Made by a program: the position numbers and the translations under genes | From: a virus | Taxonomy: Duplodnaviria > Caudoviricetes | Direction: 5' to 3' (one strand) | Length of the DNA stretch: 64,000 bases | Virus record (IMG/VR): IMGVR_UViG_3300042870_001240 | Shown here: one piece after another, positions 5,893-54,091 of the stretch | Layout: each line of letters starts with the position of its first letter | How positions within the stretch are numbered: position 1 is the stretch's first letter | The notes under the pieces: model-generated | Told to the model about the DNA's origin: nothing | The model's input: the letters and a program-made list of their open reading frames with translations, nothing else | The model's database searches: none

Positions 5893-6084
5893 GGTATTTT
5901 AGTTTATATATAAATATCACATATAACAAAAAACCCCACCTAAAAATATTTCGATTAAAAGTTGACAGTATAAAAAATAATTCGTAATATTTTGTTGTTG
6001 TTGGTTAACATAAAACCATCTCGTCAAACCCAACGGTTAGACCAATGTGGTCGAGGGTAATTATAAACAATTAAAACTTAAAAA

Positions 6085-7188
6085 ATGAAAAAGTTTAGAG
6101 TACGAATGACTAATGTTTCGACAAGATTAGTTGATGGTGAAACACAAAAATGGCTGACATGTGAGGTGTCACTATCTTCCCTAATAGAAGCAAAAAGAAA
6201 ACTAGGGAAAGAATTATTTTCCGTAAATGTTAGAGGATGTTTATCTAACAGTAAACCAACAAGTCAAGAAAGGAAAAAACCTGTATTCAGAGGTATAATG
6301 AATACAATGGACAAGATAAGAAAAAACCCTGAAAAAGCTTATCTGCAAACTATGGGAAATAATGGTTGTACGATAATGTGTGGTTCTATTGAAAGAATAT
6401 CTGGTGATATCTATGAAATCACATTAACCCATGATTACCATGGAATTGGTAACGGTCAACAAACGATTTATATAACCGAGTGGATTGATACAAATTATCC
6501 AATAAGTAGTGATGTAACCATACTATGTAAAATGGCCATTGGACTTTCAGAGGATGACTGTAACGACATATGTAAGGCAAATAACACAAGTAACAAAATC
6601 GATAAGAAAGATATCAAATCCATAGAGTGGAAAAGAATAAGTATGGAACTTAAAACATTGGGTATAACTTTCAATTATAAAAAAGAAAAAGAAGGTCAAT
6701 ACCATATCGACATCTGTGCTGAAAATTACTATAATATGATTGGGGCATATTTCACAAACAAACCTTGGGTAAACGGCCAAGAAGTGGTCGATAAAATTAA
6801 ACCTAACATCATATCAGGAAAAGAGATGATTGAAATGGATAGGGTAAAGAAAATAATTGATGATTGGTTTGAAACCAATGATAATGAGGTTAAAAAACAT
6901 AGTAATAAAATGGATACTACAAGAATGGGTTATTTAAAGAACATTATGATTTCATTATACACGGATGTTAAGATACAAGCAAGAGTAAAACCATTTATAA
7001 AAAAATACGGAGATGTTAAATTTTTTGAACTAATCTTTAAAGTTGTTATAAACACCATAGAAGAAAACGAAACAACTAAAGTATCGTCAAATTATTTTAA
7101 TAAAAAAACATACGAATTATTAAGTAAATCTATTGAAGTAGAAATTTTAGAATCAGAAATTTTAAAATCAGAAACGGTCTTAGTTTAA
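6085..7188 (+). CDS. AIPR-like (ParB/DndB-related fold) protein
   Basis: NNGCTIMC, GNGQQT and ICKANNTSNKI motifs match the AIPR pattern NNGIT...NGxQT...ATNSQN as recalled. Confidence 0.6.
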   Translation: MKKFRVRMTNVSTRLVDGETQKWLTCEVSLSSLIEAKRKLGKELFSVNVRGCLSNSKPTSQERKKPVFRGIMNTMDKIRKNPEKAYLQTMGNNGCTIMCGSIERISGDIYEITLTHDYHGIGNGQQTIYITEWIDTNYPISSDVTILCKMAIGLSEDDCNDICKANNTSNKIDKKDIKSIEWKRISMELKTLGITFNYKKEKEGQYHIDICAENYYNMIGAYFTNKPWVNGQEVVDKIKPNIISGKEMIEMDRVKKIIDDWFETNDNEVKKHSNKMDTTRMGYLKNIMISLYTDVKIQARVKPFIKKYGDVKFFELIFKVVINTIEENETTKVSSNYFNKKTYELLSKSIEVEILESEILKSETVLV

Positions 7189-45882: not shown

Positions 45883-45955
45883 TAGTCAGGACAGGATTCG
45901 AACCTATACAATAGAGCAATCGCTCAAAGCGTTTAACCAATTTCGCCACCTGACT
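45883..45955 (-). ncRNA. tRNA-like RNA 1 (acceptor, D and T arms; non-canonical 6-nt loop in place of the anticodon loop)
   Basis: AGTCAGG/CCTGACT stem, TGGCGAAATTGGTTAAACGC D arm, ATAGGTTCGAATCCTGT T arm. Confidence 0.7.
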
Positions 45956-46032
45956 ATTTACTTGTCTTTCCAAACTGTCAACTAAATTTCTAGGTAGTGG
46001 CACCTTTACACGGCCATTAGTTCTACTTGTGA

Positions 46033-46138
46033 TGGTAGTCAGGACAGGAATCGAACCTGTAACTTCTTTGTCATACAGAGTGCCATTAGCTGTTATCTCA
46101 ACCTTGATGGTGATACGTTACCACTACGCCACCTGACT
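46033..46138 (-). ncRNA. tRNA-like RNA 2 (encoded CCA; ~54-nt insert replacing the anticodon/variable region)
   Basis: Same acceptor stem; ACAGGTTCGATTCCTGT T arm; ends CCTGACT-A-CCA; TATATTTG at 46168-46175. Confidence 0.7.
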
Positions 46139-46203
46139 ATATTTTCCTTCTGTGTTTTATCTTATAACAAATATACGAACTTTATTTCGTATTTCCAAAT
46201 TCT

Positions 46204-46476
46204 TTACACTTCTGAGTGATGAATATTGTGATTAATTTCTATCCAACATTTAGCCCATATTAGATTTAGTCCTAACATGAAAGAGGGATATAGACTATAT
46301 TTTAGATTTCCACTACCTATACGAAGACACATATCTTTTCTAAAGAATATGCCAAGTTTCTTAACCTTATACTCATGAACTGTAGTGTATAAGTCTCCCG
46401 GTGAGTCCCATTTGTGACGAAATACCCCTTTCACAGTTATACCGCCTAACTTGAATTTCACTATTTTTCCTGCCAT
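46204..46476 (-). CDS. Hypothetical protein (90 aa)
   Basis: ORF. Confidence 0.6.
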   Translation of the reverse strand: MAGKIVKFKLGGITVKGVFRHKWDSPGDLYTTVHEYKVKKLGIFFRKDMCLRIGSGNLKYSLYPSFMLGLNLIWAKCWIEINHNIHHSEV

Positions 46477-46482
46477 GTTATT

Positions 46483-46716
46483 CTATTTAAAGTATTCATC
46501 ATAAATATCATCTGTGCTAACATTACCCCACTTTTTACCATACTTTACAAAACTAATTCCTTCCCTATGAAATTCCTCTAAAAGTTCTTTCTCCACGGAA
46601 AGCAATTGCTCAAGCTTCTCGTTGATTTCTTGAATATTCTTATCAGTTAATGTTTTTGCAGCGTTTGATTCAGTTGCGAACCAATCTCTAAATGTGGTTA
46701 TTGGTGTTTTTTTCAT
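46483..46716 (-). CDS. Hypothetical protein (77 aa)
   Basis: ORF. Confidence 0.6.
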   Translation of the reverse strand: MKKTPITTFRDWFATESNAAKTLTDKNIQEINEKLEQLLSVEKELLEEFHREGISFVKYGKKWGNVSTDDIYDEYFK

Positions 46717-46750
46717 GATATATTTTTCATTTATACTTTTATTTTTTTAG

Positions 46751-46879
46751 TAGTCAGGACAGGACTTGAACCTGTGATAGTATCCATCAGCACATTGATA
46801 AAGCAGATACTCCGTTGTACTTCTGTCAGAAAGTTTTTACGTCAATGTTTCGGTGCGTGTTCCAACTCGCCACCTGACT
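46751..46879 (-). ncRNA. tRNA-like RNA 3 (~80-nt structured insert)
   Basis: Same acceptor stem, D and T arms; insert contains ACATTGA/TCAATGT stem; TATCTTTG at 46886-46893 directly upstream. Confidence 0.7.
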
Positions 46880-46885
46880 ATAATA

Positions 46886-46893
46886 CAAAGATA
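46886..46893 (-). promoter_or_regulatory. Bacteroidota housekeeping-sigma -7 element (TAnnTTTG); representative of more than 12 copies
   Basis: TATCTTTG immediately upstream of tRNA-like RNA 3; the same motif precedes the 1862, 4106, 9453, 22292, 30079, 35927, 40334, 41392, 47970, 48774, 49641 and 63643 starts. Confidence 0.75.
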
Positions 46894-47007
46894 ATAAAAA
46901 AATTGGGGAATAAAAATAATTCTCCATTTTTTTATTTTTAATCCAAACTTTAAAACATAAAAAACCCCTCTTTGTTGGAGGGGTCTTAATAAGATATTTT
47001 TAATAAA

Positions 47008-49215: not shown

Positions 49216-49641
49216 TTATATAGATTGTTTGGATTCCCTATCTAAATCTCGTAATTTAATAGAATTTCTTTTATCCCATAGTTTTTTACCTTTAGCCAAC
49301 ACAATATCAACCTTCAATAATCCCCTGTCATTCTCATATAATACATGAGGAATGATTGTATATCCCTTAACCAACTCTGATTCAAGTTTTCTTAATTGTT
49401 TTTTCTTCAATAACAATTTTTTATCGGTAGCAATATTATCATTCCCAATTCCTTGGATAAGAACCCCTTTCATATATAACTCCCCATTATTAAAATAACA
49501 GAACGAGTCAGTCATAGAGACTTTCCCTTCTCGGATTCTCTTAACCTCAACACCAGTCAATTTAATACCCGCCAAGAATGTTTCCTCAATAAAATACTCA
49601 AACTTAACTTTTTTATTCTCAATACGAACTTTTATCTTCAT
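49216..49641 (-). CDS. smpB: SsrA-binding protein SmpB
   Basis: ENKK.KFEYFIEETFLAGIKLTGVEVKRIR, KKLLL.KKQLRKL, LAKGKKLWDKR motifs; ATG at 49641 behind TATCTTTG. Confidence 0.92.
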   Translation of the reverse strand: MKIKVRIENKKVKFEYFIEETFLAGIKLTGVEVKRIREGKVSMTDSFCYFNNGELYMKGVLIQGIGNDNIATDKKLLLKKKQLRKLESELVKGYTIIPHVLYENDRGLLKVDIVLAKGKKLWDKRNSIKLRDLDRESKQSI

Positions 49642-53224: not shown

Positions 53225-54091
53225 TTAAACCCCTTCTTCAAAAACTAATTTACTTTGTTTTTTATCATCAACAAATGCTTGTATTCGTTTACGAGATATT
53301 TCACAATAATCAGGACTTAATTCAATCCCAATCCATCTCCTATCTAATATCTCAGCAGCAACACATGACGTTCCACTTCCGTTGAATGGGTCAAGAACAA
53401 TATCATTCTTATAAGATAATATCTTAATCGCCCTTGTAGGGATATCCATTGAGAATGTTGCCTTGGTTAAGGATTTAGTGTCAGCAAAATATTTCCATTG
53501 CCCAAACACCAATTCCATAAAATCTTTTTTATCAATATCCTCATAAACAACTTTTTTCTTAATTGTTCCATCCTCTTGTTCAATATCAGTTGGAACTCCC
53601 TTCCATTGGGGTTCTCCCTTAACAGTCTTAATATGTTTATGTTTGTAGGCTAATATAACACACTCTTTTGGGTTATAAATATAAGGGCTGGATGGACTCA
53701 TCCAACTACCCCAAGCAGTCGTCTTACTTCTATGGGGACTGTCTTCCTCAAGGTCAACGATACCGAAGAACTTATAACCAATTCTTTTCATAACTTGATA
53801 GACTTCAGAACAAAAGAAAATTCTACCACCTTTATCTTGTCTATTTATTTCGTAGGGGATATTTAACGCAATTCTACCATCGTCTTTTAATAACTGATAC
53901 GCTTCAGTTAACCATTCTTTAGTAAATTTTAGATATTCATCAAAATATACATCATCATTATGAACATCATAATTAATCCCAACACCATAAGGACAACTAG
54001 TCACAATTAAGTCAATTGAGTTTATCGGCATTTTTGACATTATGTCAATACAATCACCATTAATAACTTTACCCGTATAATTTTCTATCAT
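53225..54091 (-). CDS. DNA methyltransferase, N4-C/N6-A, beta class
   Basis: IDLIVTSCPY (motif IV variant) near the N-terminus and VLDPFNGSGT (motif I) near the C-terminus. Confidence 0.88.
   Translation of the reverse strand: MIENYTGKVINGDCIDIMSKMPINSIDLIVTSCPYGVGINYDVHNDDVYFDEYLKFTKEWLTEAYQLLKDDGRIALNIPYEINRQDKGGRIFFCSEVYQVMKRIGYKFFGIVDLEEDSPHRSKTTAWGSWMSPSSPYIYNPKECVILAYKHKHIKTVKGEPQWKGVPTDIEQEDGTIKKKVVYEDIDKKDFMELVFGQWKYFADTKSLTKATFSMDIPTRAIKILSYKNDIVLDPFNGSGTSCVAAEILDRRWIGIELSPDYCEISRKRIQAFVDDKKQSKLVFEEGV

What the first reader, a model, noticed from the sequence alone, without database searches (positions are those of the whole stretch)
45883..46879. Three tRNA-shaped RNAs with one acceptor stem but interchangeable cargo instead of an anticodon arm
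SEEN (minus strand): all three begin AGTCAGG-TG-GCG...CG(C/T), end A(C/T)AGG-TTC(G/A)A(A/T/G)T-CCTGT-CCTGACT-A, and differ only in the middle: ~21 nt with a 6-nt loop (45883-45955), ~54 nt (46033-46138, encoded CCA) and ~80 nt with a long ACATTGA/TCAATGT stem (46751-46879). Two have a TAnnTTTG promoter upstream; one abuts the 5' end. No 7-nt U-turn anticodon loop is evident. KNOWN: acceptor/T-arm elbows are recognised by RNase P, RNase Z, the CCA-adding enzyme and EF-Tu. INFERENCE: a tRNA scaffold used to stabilise or release small RNAs, decoys for host tRNA nucleases or uncharged-tRNA sensors, or anticodon-less tRNA mimics.
Basis: partly seen in the sequence, partly recalled or inferred. Interest (0 to 1): 0.8.

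Follow-up and report, generated by a model that had tools for sequence, protein, structure and literature searches.

The report
Phage tRNA-bodied RNAs with swappable middles
A lake-water phage carries three genes for RNAs with the body of a leucine tRNA but a different folded module where the anticodon arm should be; the same body occurs in hundreds of uncultured phage contigs with hundreds of different modules, which points to an undescribed natural tRNA chassis for small functional RNAs.

Summary
Three minus-strand genes (45883-45955, 46036-46138, 46751-46879) share a 7-bp acceptor stem (AGUCAGG/CCUGACU), A73, a D arm and a T arm, and differ only in the middle. None has a 7-nt anticodon loop.

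They are not odd one-offs. No deposited phage record matched it.

- **Origin:** the body derives from a Bacteroidota or phage tRNA-Leu.
- **Flanks:** U-1, A-2, A-4 and C74, as in genuine tRNA genes.
- **Middles are maintained:** compensatory changes occur, and copy 3 is 100% identical to a relative whose nearby genes are 79% identical.
- **Middles are exchanged:** 29 of 56 pairs with homologous flanks carry unrelated middles, and 161 of 192 pairs with the same middle have unrelated flanks.

They are neither decoders nor intron-containing tRNAs, and no middle matches Rfam.

Best reading: non-decoding, tRNA-processed chassis RNAs whose middle is the effector. The target is unknown. A decoy role in host takeover or counter-defence is inference.

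This scan noted the same kind on other DNA (e1-4131516, e1-5360074). The closest published analogue is T4 species 1 RNA.

The parts
45883..45955 (-). Copy 1: 73-nt tRNA-bodied RNA. The middle is only a 4-bp stem with a GAUU loop, so this is a near-empty chassis.
   Evidence: Sequence. RF00005 45.4 bits. The ARAGORN Gln call is an aberrant fold. The middle has no exact homologue in IMG/VR.
45956..45982 (-). Conserved leader hairpin just upstream of copy 1: UUGAC, a covarying stem, a GAAAGA loop, then AAAU.
   Evidence: The same leader lies before 14 of 163 family elements, with a covarying stem (GCUCG/CGAGC, GCUUG/CAAGC, UUUG/CAAG). Its role is unknown.
46033..46138 (-). Copy 2: 103-nt tRNA-bodied RNA (46036-46138) plus encoded CCA (46033-46035). 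It carries the 'cargo 2' pseudoknot-like module.
   Evidence: RF00005 47 bits with a 45-nt insert. In 11 aligned homologues the closing pair covaries (GC 5, UA 5, AU 1) and a CCA/UGG loop-tail pairing is kept.
46168..46199 (-). Bacteroidota-type promoter (TTTG, 20 nt, TATATTTG) about 30 nt upstream of copy 2.
   Evidence: The pattern is enriched in the window: 15 matches against 4.0 +/- 1.9 expected, 0 of 100 shuffles.
46751..46879 (-). Copy 3: 129-nt tRNA-bodied RNA carrying the 'cargo 3' module. The module has an invariant core, an internal variable hairpin and a covarying AGUAUC/GAUACU stem.
   Evidence: Seven aligned homologues (an eighth, L267, has the identical sequence). Three carry a different acceptor stem (UGUCAAG/AUUGACA). 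One pair shows compensatory change. The element is 100% identical over 133 nt to L267, whose nearby genes are 79% identical.
46886..46893 (-). TATCTTTG (TAnnTTTG, -7 box) 6 nt upstream of copy 3.
   Evidence: Sequence. No -33 TTTG lies at the standard spacing.
46961..46987 (-). Intrinsic terminator of the upstream gene. It sets copy 3 at the start of a new transcription unit.
   Evidence: Terminator scan.

Best explanation
These are genes for non-decoding RNAs built on one phage-specific chassis derived from tRNA-Leu. The chassis consists of the acceptor stem AGUCAGG/CCUGACU, A73, a D arm with G18G19, and a T arm.

The chassis makes the transcript look like a pre-tRNA. Host RNase P, 3' trimming and the CCA-adding enzyme are therefore expected to cut it out of phage transcripts and give it tRNA-like stability (inferred).

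The region that replaces the anticodon arm is a folded module. It is the working, fast-evolving part. It is conserved within module families and is exchanged between phages by recombination in the invariant arms.

The most likely activity of the modules is binding host factors during takeover or counter-defence, for example as pseudo-substrates of tRNA-binding enzymes. That step is inference, and no target is known.

Copy 1 is a near-empty chassis.
For: **Shown**
1. Family size. Lengths run 54-191 nt, with about 280 middle clusters of which 233 are singletons.
2. Phage-specific acceptor. No cellular tRNA with it exists in 185,579 species genomes, and the 28 genome hits are almost all MAG contigs, enriched in Bacteroidota.
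3. tRNA-Leu origin. A Bacteroidota tRNA-Leu(CAG) shares the D arm, the T arm, acceptor pairs 4-7 and A73. A phage tRNA-Leu(UAA) has ACUCAGG.
4. Pre-tRNA-like flanks. U-1 in 137/161, A-2 in 117, A-4 in 110 and C74 in 161/163, as in genuine tRNAs of the same phages and of the host.
5. The middles are under selection:
   - The cargo-2 closing pair is GC 5, UA 5, AU 1, and 0 of 500 shuffles reach the covariation score.
   - Cargo 3 has a compensatory pair and occurs with two acceptor types.
   - Copy 3 is 133/133 identical to L267, against 79% for nearby genes.
   - Middles fold better than shuffles (mean z -0.59, p 1.5e-10).
6. Exchange. 29 of 56 pairs with both flanks homologous have unrelated middles, and 161 of 192 pairs with the same middle have unrelated flanks (example).

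**Inferred**
- Processing by host tRNA-maturation enzymes.
- Stability of the mature RNA.
- Protein binding by the modules.
Against: - No expression or processing data exist. Metatranscriptome contigs only show that family members are present in RNA libraries, which may hold DNA.
- About 8% of elements are 76 nt or shorter, with only a small hairpin as the middle. Copy 1 is one of them. The chassis may therefore have a role of its own.
- The near-invariant sequence of the acceptor stem is not explained by a pure stabilising scaffold, since any stem would do.
- No shared motif exists among the middles.
- No conserved neighbouring protein was found.
- No Rfam family matches any middle.
- The middles show no antisense complementarity to the window's own transcripts.

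The target class is therefore open.
Confidence: 0.5

Rival explanations
1. The chassis itself is the function, and the middle is merely tolerated. In this reading the element is an anticodon-less tRNA-Leu mimic. It could be charged by LeuRS, which does not read the anticodon, and used as a non-translational leucyl donor. Alternatively it could titrate a tRNA-binding factor such as an acceptor-end toxin, LeuRS, EF-Tu or a processing enzyme.
For: - The body keeps A73.
- 196 of 365 elements keep the tRNA-Leu-type D arm.
- Near-empty members such as copy 1 exist.
- The acceptor sequence is almost invariant, which suggests sequence-specific recognition.
- There is a precedent for a phage enzyme that uses aminoacyl-tRNA outside translation: Mom with Gly-tRNA (PMC13219725).
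- From my own knowledge: E. coli LeuRS charges minimal tRNA-Leu lacking the anticodon and variable arms.
Against: - Middles are conserved with compensatory changes and recur on different acceptor stems. A spacer would not do this.
- Nearly half the members have non-Leu D arms. One cargo-2 subgroup lacks U8.
- Several different copies per contig are common.
Confidence: 0.2
2. The elements are RNA punctuation marks. They exist to recruit RNase P and RNase Z so that phage polycistronic transcripts are cut between genes, as in mitochondria. The middles drift or carry secondary functions.
For: - In the window the elements lie between small ORFs on one strand. No terminator follows copy 3.
- In one phage group a single element sits between a 191-aa ORF and the terminase gene.
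- The flanks are pre-tRNA-like.
Against: - It does not explain the conserved, covarying middles, the invariant acceptor sequence, or tandem arrays of up to 8 elements in one fetched locus.
- Copies 2 and 3 have their own promoter elements.
Confidence: 0.08
3. The elements are tmRNA-like RNAs that enter ribosomes. In this reading they are charged, bound by SmpB in place of the missing anticodon arm, and act on stalled or host ribosomes.
For: - A phage smpB lies at 49219-49641, 2.3 kb from the trio (PF01668, E 2e-40).
- Relatives place a family element within about 1.3 to 2.5 kb of SmpB.
- The architecture, a tRNA top half plus a module in place of the anticodon arm, parallels tmRNA.
Against: - The G3:U70 alanine identity pair is absent (here U3-A70).
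- A full D stem is present.
- No tag reading frame is evident.
- SmpB is absent from 5 other cargo-2 contigs, one of them 100% complete. It was found in only 5 of about 390 fetched loci.
- Relatives encode a normal tmRNA. A first-reader note, which I did not check, reports one elsewhere in this genome (e1-5392090).
Confidence: 0.05
4. The elements are real decoding tRNAs with unusual or intron-interrupted anticodon arms.
For: - Rfam tRNA scores are above threshold for two copies.
- ARAGORN of 170 sites, or 93 of 163 with introns allowed.
- Rare members have a perfect anticodon arm. L054 (71 nt) has the loop CUUUUAA and scores 66 bits.
Against: - The predicted anticodons are scattered over 20 amino acids and include A34 anticodons.
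- They lie at positions 28-38, and 2- or 4-nt 'anticodons' occur.
- Predicted intron positions run from 29 to 40.
- The call for copy 1 needs an aberrant fold.
- No self-splicing intron family matches.
Confidence: 0.03
5. The elements are decaying tRNA pseudogenes, or they act at the DNA level as recombination or attachment sites rather than as RNAs.
For: - L118 has a copy with a deleted D arm and a mismatched acceptor.
- A Hymenobacter montanus contig has the family 3' end fused at the T loop to a tRNA-Arg-like sequence.
- The invariant arms do serve as recombination breakpoints.
Against: - The arms are intact and base-paired in nearly all of the 368 elements, with only wobble-compatible variants.
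- T stems covary.
- The flanks are pre-tRNA-like.
- The RNA-level structure of the middles is conserved.
Confidence: 0.04

Closest known systems
Bacteriophage T4 species 1 RNA (rnaC, NC_000866 70908-71046)
   Same: - A stable phage RNA of 139 nt at the end of the tRNA gene cluster.
- It has a canonical T arm followed by an acceptor-like 3' strand, and a large folded middle instead of an anticodon arm.
- Its function is unknown.
   Different: - No sequence relation was seen.
- T4 has a single copy. This family has one invariant tRNA-Leu-derived body with hundreds of exchangeable middles and several copies per genome.
- The T4 acceptor pairing is imperfect in the predicted fold.
tRNA-Leu of Bacteroidota and of phages
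   Same: - The D arm (GGCGGAAUUGGUAGACGC type), the T arm, acceptor pairs 4-7, A73 and C74 match.
   Different: - Acceptor pairs 1-3 are changed to A-U, G-C, U-A.
- The anticodon arm and long variable arm are replaced by unrelated modules.
- No Leu anticodon is present.
tmRNA with SmpB
   Same: - It is a tRNA top half with a functional domain where the anticodon arm would be.
- A phage smpB is nearby.
   Different: - There is no G3:U70 pair, no tag frame and no pseudoknot ring.
- A D stem is present.
- It is not detected by ARAGORN or RF00023.
- SmpB does not co-occur in other members' contigs.
YrlA-type bacterial and phage Y RNAs (RF02553)
   Same: - They are non-decoding tRNA mimics carried by phages.
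- A YrlA-like element lies next to family members in relatives L051, L033 and L257.
   Different: - YrlA is circularly permuted, with a capped acceptor and its ends at the anticodon side.
- In this family the ends are at the acceptor stem, as in a tRNA.
Engineered tRNA scaffolds for recombinant RNA (Ponchon and Dardel, from my own knowledge); tRNA-linked small RNAs of murine gammaherpesvirus 68
   Same: - The anticodon arm is replaced by an RNA of interest, so that the cell processes and stabilises it as a tRNA. The architecture found here is the same.
   Different: - Those are man-made. In the herpesvirus case the small RNA lies beside the tRNA and is released from it.
- Here the arrangement is natural and bacterial-viral, and the module stays inside the body.
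GOLLD and ROOL RNA loci in phage tRNA islands
   Same: - Relatives of this phage place a family element about 0.8 to 1.4 kb from a GOLLD RNA scoring 300 bits.
- GOLLD is reported near, and sometimes fused to, phage tRNAs (PMC12286853).
   Different: - No GOLLD or ROOL is present in this window, nor in 18 other family loci.
- The association is limited to one lineage.

Membership tests
Canonical decoding tRNA (RF00005) | 7-bp acceptor stem, D arm with G18G19, and T arm with a GUUCRANYC loop | tested here: met
   Sequence. Rfam alignment of copies 1 and 2. 340 of 365 family members have GG in the D loop.
Canonical decoding tRNA (RF00005) | 5-bp anticodon stem with a 7-nt loop, U33 and a purine at position 37, at positions 27-43 | tested here: not met
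   None of the three copies has it. The ARAGORN call for copy 1 is an aberrant fold. In the family, predicted anticodons are random.
Intron-containing tRNA | Removing one insert at or near position 37/38 leaves a canonical anticodon arm with a consistent anticodon. Alternatively, the insert is a recognisable group I intron. | tested here: not met
   With the ARAGORN intron option, insert positions run 29-40 and anticodons are scattered and include A34. No intron family appears in Rfam scans. The middles are 20-140 nt, too short for group I introns.
tmRNA | G3:U70 pair, tag reading frame with a resume codon, and detection by ARAGORN or RF00023 | tested here: not met
   The pair is U3-A70. There is no tmRNA call in the window even at E 0.01.
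tmRNA | Partner protein SmpB encoded with it | tested here: inconclusive
   smpB is present at 49219-49641. It is absent from 5 other contigs that carry the same middle. It is accounted for by ordinary tmRNAs in relatives.
YrlA / Y RNA | Permuted tRNA-like module with a loop-capped acceptor and a Ro-binding stem at the RNA's ends | tested here: not met
   The topology is that of a normal tRNA. There is no RF02553 hit in the window.
T4 species 1 RNA-type tRNA-bodied stable RNA | T arm plus acceptor pairing of the two ends, a large structured middle, and a phage-encoded gene among or near tRNA genes | tested here: met
   The architecture was compared. Family members lie among 235 genuine tRNA genes in the fetched loci. 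Sequence homology to rnaC was not tested.
T4 species 1 RNA-type tRNA-bodied stable RNA | Accumulates as a stable, RNase P-processed RNA | not testable with these tools
   Only contigs from metatranscriptomes were available.
tRNA-Leu (as a LeuRS substrate) | A73 and a tRNA-Leu-type D arm and elbow | tested here: inconclusive
   A73 is present in 320 of 365 elements, and a Leu-type D arm in 196 of 365. Copy 1 is close to the Leu type. Copies 2 and 3 have other D loops. Aminoacylation cannot be tested here.

The most novel reading that the evidence does not exclude
Phages of freshwater Bacteroidota maintain a natural RNA display system. One invariant tRNA-Leu-derived chassis lets any inserted module be processed and stabilised as a tRNA. 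Its two 25-nt arms double as homology arms, through which modules are traded between phages.

The modules would be aptamer-like pseudo-substrates that block tRNA-directed host defence or translation factors, such as anticodon nucleases, Cas13-type RNases or acceptor-end toxins. Each phage would carry the set that fits its hosts.
Probability: 0.2. Interest if true: 0.9.

Novelty: new variant of a known kind. Interest (0 to 1): 0.78.

Why it matters
Non-decoding tRNA look-alikes are known as isolated cases: tmRNA, Y RNAs, and T4 species 1 RNA, which has been unexplained for 50 years. This finding adds a principle. One nearly invariant tRNA body is reused with hundreds of unrelated, conserved, exchangeable RNA modules across hundreds of uncultured phages.

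If the modules are effectors, this is a large untapped reservoir of small structured RNAs with unknown targets. Some, such as cargo 2, look like compact pseudoknotted aptamers.

It would also be a natural counterpart of the tRNA scaffolds used in biotechnology.

It gives a concrete way to approach what T4 species 1 RNA and the 'tRNA-Undet' genes of many phage annotations do.

It also warns that tRNA counts in phage genomes are inflated by such genes. Rfam scores them as tRNA, and ARAGORN assigns them arbitrary anticodons.

Tried and rejected
- **Intron-containing tRNAs.** ARAGORN with introns gave random anticodons and insert positions.
- **Known RNA family in the middles.** Rfam found nothing but RF00005, both at gathering scores on 18 loci and at E 0.05 on 15 loci. 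The same held for the window at E 0.01 and for the finding region at E 10.
- **Antisense regulators of the phage's own genes.** The longest complementary words (10-12 nt) are no longer than with shuffled middles.
- **A conserved partner protein next to the elements.** The largest neighbour cluster covers 14 of 148 loci. Neighbours were terminase, DUF932, metallophosphatase, a DNA methylase and proteins of unknown function.
- **SmpB as a general partner.** It was found in 5 fetched loci only, and is absent from 5 whole contigs that carry cargo 2.
- **Deposited phages.** No INPHARED record has the scaffold, only T-arm-level matches. Tenacibaculum phage pT24 has other odd 'tRNA-Undet' genes.
- **Host mimicry.** No cellular tRNA has this acceptor stem. 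The copy 3 sequence matches Bacteroidota genomes only at the T arm.
- **A shared motif among the middles.** None was found beyond U48 and an A or U at position 26. No uniform closing helix appears in MFE folds.
- **A homologue of copy 1's middle.** None in IMG/VR.
- **Expression.** Two lake metatranscriptome runs hold contigs that cover parts of the region, and other family members. They are assembled contigs from relatives or paralogues, and DNA carry-over cannot be excluded. Nothing can be said on transcript ends or levels.
- **The split partner of the Hymenobacter montanus chimera.** It was not found.
Full report
**1. The observation**

Read on the minus strand, 45883-45955 (73 nt), 46036-46138 (103 nt, followed by an encoded CCA) and 46751-46879 (129 nt) share several features:
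- the same 7-bp acceptor stem, AGUCAGG/CCUGACU;
- U8-G9;
- a D arm beginning GCG and closing CG(C/U);
- a T arm (A[C/U]AGG, UUC[G/A]A[A/U/G]U, CCUGU);
- discriminator A73.

The 22-nt 3' motif occurs three times in the window, against none in 100 shuffles.

The three copies differ only between the D arm and the T arm:
- Copy 1 has a 4-bp hairpin with a GAUU loop.
- Copy 2 has 54 nt.
- Copy 3 has 80 nt.

None has a 5-bp stem with a 7-nt U33 loop.

ARAGORN reports only copy 1, as tRNA-Gln(ttg) with the anticodon at position 29. The fold it draws sacrifices the D loop and uses a mismatched stem. Rfam's tRNA model scores copies 1 and 2 at 45 and 47 bits by treating the middle as an insert, and it does not report copy 3.

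The window is 30% G+C and its genes are mostly on the minus strand. It is enriched for the Bacteroidota promoter pattern TTTG-N17-21-TAnnTTTG (15 found, 4.0 expected).
- One such promoter lies at 46168-46199, before copy 2.
- A TATCTTTG box lies 6 nt before copy 3, just after the terminator of the upstream gene.

**2. A very large phage family**

A second scan with the 5' half also stopped at 120, and most of those contigs were new.

Pooled with two searches for specific middles, I hold 368 unique elements in 238 loci:
- Lengths run 54-191 nt, with a median of 104.
- A fetched locus holds up to 8 elements.
- The middles fall into about 280 clusters, of which 233 are singletons.

When sampled from the 5' side, the 3' strand plus discriminator is CCUGACUA in 83 of 120 elements. 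Most of the variants are single transitions that keep pairing through G-U. The T arm is ACAGG-UUCGAAU-CCUGU in 61 of 120, with a few covarying stems.

In the GTDB species genomes the motif occurs 28 times. Almost all hits lie on MAG contigs, with an excess of Chitinophagia, Flavobacterium, Saprospiraceae and Sediminibacterium. A pattern that allows any T stem finds no cellular tRNA with this acceptor stem. No deposited phage record has it.

The window's DNA is present in at least 18 lake-water metagenome runs.

**3. Origin**

A Bacteroidota tRNA-Leu(CAG) (L280:1441-1525) has the same D arm type, the same T arm, acceptor pairs 4-7 and A73-C74. Phage tRNA-Leu genes in the fetched loci have the same D arm, and one has the acceptor ACUCAGG.

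The body is therefore a tRNA-Leu derivative whose first three acceptor pairs were changed and then frozen.

The flanks look like those of pre-tRNAs:
- U at -1 (137/161), A at -2 (117) and A at -4 (110);
- C at 74 (161/163), followed by A-rich sequence;
- genuine tRNAs of the same contigs, and the host tRNA-Leu, also carry C74 without a full CCA.

From established knowledge of bacterial RNase P and of CCA-less tRNA genes, I infer that these transcripts are matured by the host tRNA pathway. This was not shown.

**4. Not decoders, not intron tRNAs**

ARAGORN of 170 sites. The anticodons are scattered over many amino acids, lie at positions 28-38, and are sometimes 2 or 4 nt long.

With introns allowed it of 163. 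The anticodons are again scattered and include many with A34, and the inserts lie at positions 29-40.

Only rare members have a perfect anticodon arm, for example a 71-nt element in L054 with the loop CUUUUAA.

Rfam finds nothing in any middle.

**5. The middles are functional modules**

*Copy 3.* Its middle recurs in eight contigs.
- It has an invariant core, an internal hairpin that differs between members, and a stem that changes AGUAUC/GAUACU to AGUCUC/GAGACU or AGUUUC/GAAACU.
- Three members carry it on a different acceptor stem, UGUCAAG/AUUGACA.
- In L267, a related phage whose homologous small ORFs are 79% identical at the DNA level, the element is identical over 133 of 133 nt and sits in a different place.

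*Copy 2.* Its middle recurs in at least 12 contigs.
- In an 11-sequence alignment, the base before CACC and the base after AAAG covary perfectly (GC 5, UA 5, AU 1).
- A loop CCA pairs with a downstream UGG (UCA/UGA in the window).
- An inner hairpin covaries.
- No shuffle of 500 reaches the observed covariation score, and slid controls collapse.
- The closing pair sits where the anticodon stem would start. One or two unpaired nucleotides (positions 26-27) and 4-5 nt of 'variable loop' are kept, so the tRNA core geometry is preserved.

*Other middles.* Some are likewise shared between different acceptor stems: L100 with L032, and L025 with L080.

Across 135 middles the folding energy is lower than that of dinucleotide shuffles (mean z -0.59, p 1.5e-10). 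There is no common motif.

**6. The middles are exchanged**

Among element pairs from different contigs, 56 have both 150-nt flanks homologous. In 29 of these the middles are unrelated.

Conversely, 161 of 192 pairs with homologous middles have no flank homology.

Examples:
- One orthologous site, between a 191-aa ORF and the terminase gene, carries at least six different middles.
- L049 and L087 share the upstream 68 nt and the downstream trailer with L116, but the interior differs entirely.
- In L267 two tandem elements share body and trailer but not the middle.

The invariant arms thus behave as recombination breakpoints. Whether this is why they are invariant is inference.

**7. Context**

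No protein family is consistently adjacent.

The window encodes an intact SmpB at 49219-49641. Relatives (L051, L226, L257, L033) have an RNA island: a family element, a YrlA-like element (not reported for L226), another tRNA-like RNA, GOLLD, SmpB, and in L051 a tmRNA.

However, SmpB is absent from five other contigs with the copy 2 middle, one of them complete. First-reader notes, which I did not check, report a tmRNA and a GOLLD-like RNA elsewhere in this genome. I therefore treat SmpB as the partner of an ordinary phage tmRNA.

Fourteen of 163 elements, copy 1 included, are preceded by a conserved hairpin with a covarying stem and a GAAAGA loop. Its role is unknown.

**8. Mechanism**

*Shown:*
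- a tRNA-Leu-derived, phage-specific body;
- pre-tRNA-like flanks;
- no anticodon arm;
- conserved, structured and exchangeable middles.

*Inferred:*
- The RNAs are excised and CCA-tailed by host enzymes and are stable.
- The middle is the effector, and the body is the delivery and stability chassis.
- Given the diversity, the turnover at orthologous sites, several different copies per genome and the setting in phage accessory regions, the modules most likely bind host factors in takeover or counter-defence.

*Main rival:* the body itself is the agent, as a chargeable or titrating tRNA-Leu mimic. The near-empty members and the frozen acceptor sequence speak for this. Both could be true.

Punctuation of transcripts, tmRNA-like action, decoding and decay are less likely, for the reasons given under the rivals.

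**9. Comparison and novelty**

The nearest published analogue is T4 species 1 RNA (rnaC). It has a T arm and paired ends around a large middle, lies in the tRNA cluster, and has no known function.

tmRNA, YrlA and engineered tRNA scaffolds share the principle but fail membership tests.

I found no paper with the sequence, or describing such a family, in the held library. The three recently reported bacterial tRNA mimics are other RNAs.

This scan has flagged the same kind on other DNA (e1-4131516, e1-5360074). Those notes agree with mine but are not independent proof.

I rate the finding a new variant of a known kind. What is new is the scale, the single frozen chassis and the cassette-like exchange of modules.

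Noticed in passing
window 49219-49641 (-): An intact phage-encoded SmpB of 141 aa (PF01668, E 2e-40), with a C-terminal tail slightly shorter than that of E. coli SmpB (E. coli sequence recalled from memory, not aligned). No tmRNA is present in the window at E 0.01. Relatives (L051) have SmpB beside a tmRNA.
   Followed up: partly
L051:3977-5800, L226:495-2551, L033:468-3363, L257:12-2600: A conserved phage RNA island: family element, YrlA-like permuted tRNA mimic (RF02553, 34-40 bits, below threshold; not reported for L226), a second tRNA-like RNA (acceptor GGUAUUG, a hairpin inserted in the D loop, loop AACGAAA), GOLLD RNA (about 300 bits) and SmpB. L051 also has a tmRNA.
   Followed up: partly
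window 45956-45982; also L001, L025, L038, L046, L049, L084, L087, L107, L116: A conserved leader directly before some elements: UUGAC, a covarying 4-5-bp stem and a GAAAGA loop. It also occurs before tRNA-like genes with other acceptor stems (L089, L308, L312). Its function is unknown.
   Followed up: partly
L014, L046, L068, L120 (156-176 nt elements): A separate long tRNA-like family. It has covarying acceptor stems (UGUCAGG, UGUAAGG, UGACAGG, UGUAGAG), discriminator G and a conserved middle (GGGUUGACCAC.AAGC). There is no Rfam family for the middle.
   Followed up: no
L036, L037, L072, L097 (68-71 nt): Another small tRNA-like family with acceptor GGCUAUG/CAUGGCC and a 2-nt 'anticodon' by ARAGORN.
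   Followed up: no
L121:5788-5866, 5951-6023, 6155-6233 (Tenacibaculum phage pT24, LC168164): A cultured jumbo phage of a Bacteroidota host has genes annotated tRNA-Undet or tRNA-Pro whose anticodon arms are replaced by long stems with 5-6-nt loops. This is a possible laboratory system for anticodon-less tRNA mimics.
   Followed up: no
L135:6790-6885 (Hymenobacter montanus BT664, G001:C2:142860): The 5' three-quarters of a tRNA-Arg(CCU)-like sequence is fused at the T loop to the family's 3' end, with another CUGACUAC remnant just upstream. It is probably a recombination or prophage junction. No matching 5' half was found on that contig.
   Followed up: partly
L287:1911-2090, L290:5113-5310: In a few members the 3' acceptor strand is interrupted by a 50-85-nt insert that contains a hairpin with a UAGAAAU loop.
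   Followed up: no
L100:191-325: A Hatchet ribozyme (RF02678, 82 bits) lies in a family-bearing phage contig that also encodes a tmRNA.
   Followed up: no
window 46036-46110 (copy 2 middle): Most cargo-2 homologues contain CACCUCC, the anti-Shine-Dalgarno sequence of 16S rRNA, partly paired to AAGGU. The window's own copy reads CACCAUC. In Bacteroidota the anti-SD is normally sequestered. The resemblance may be chance.
   Followed up: no
window 53228-54091 and other ORFs: The window also encodes several DNA methyltransferases, an S-adenosylmethionine lyase-family protein, an AIPR/Abi-like protein, glycosyltransferases, a sulfatase and a glutamine synthetase-like protein. This is consistent with a large phage rich in accessory and counter-defence genes.
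   Followed up: partly
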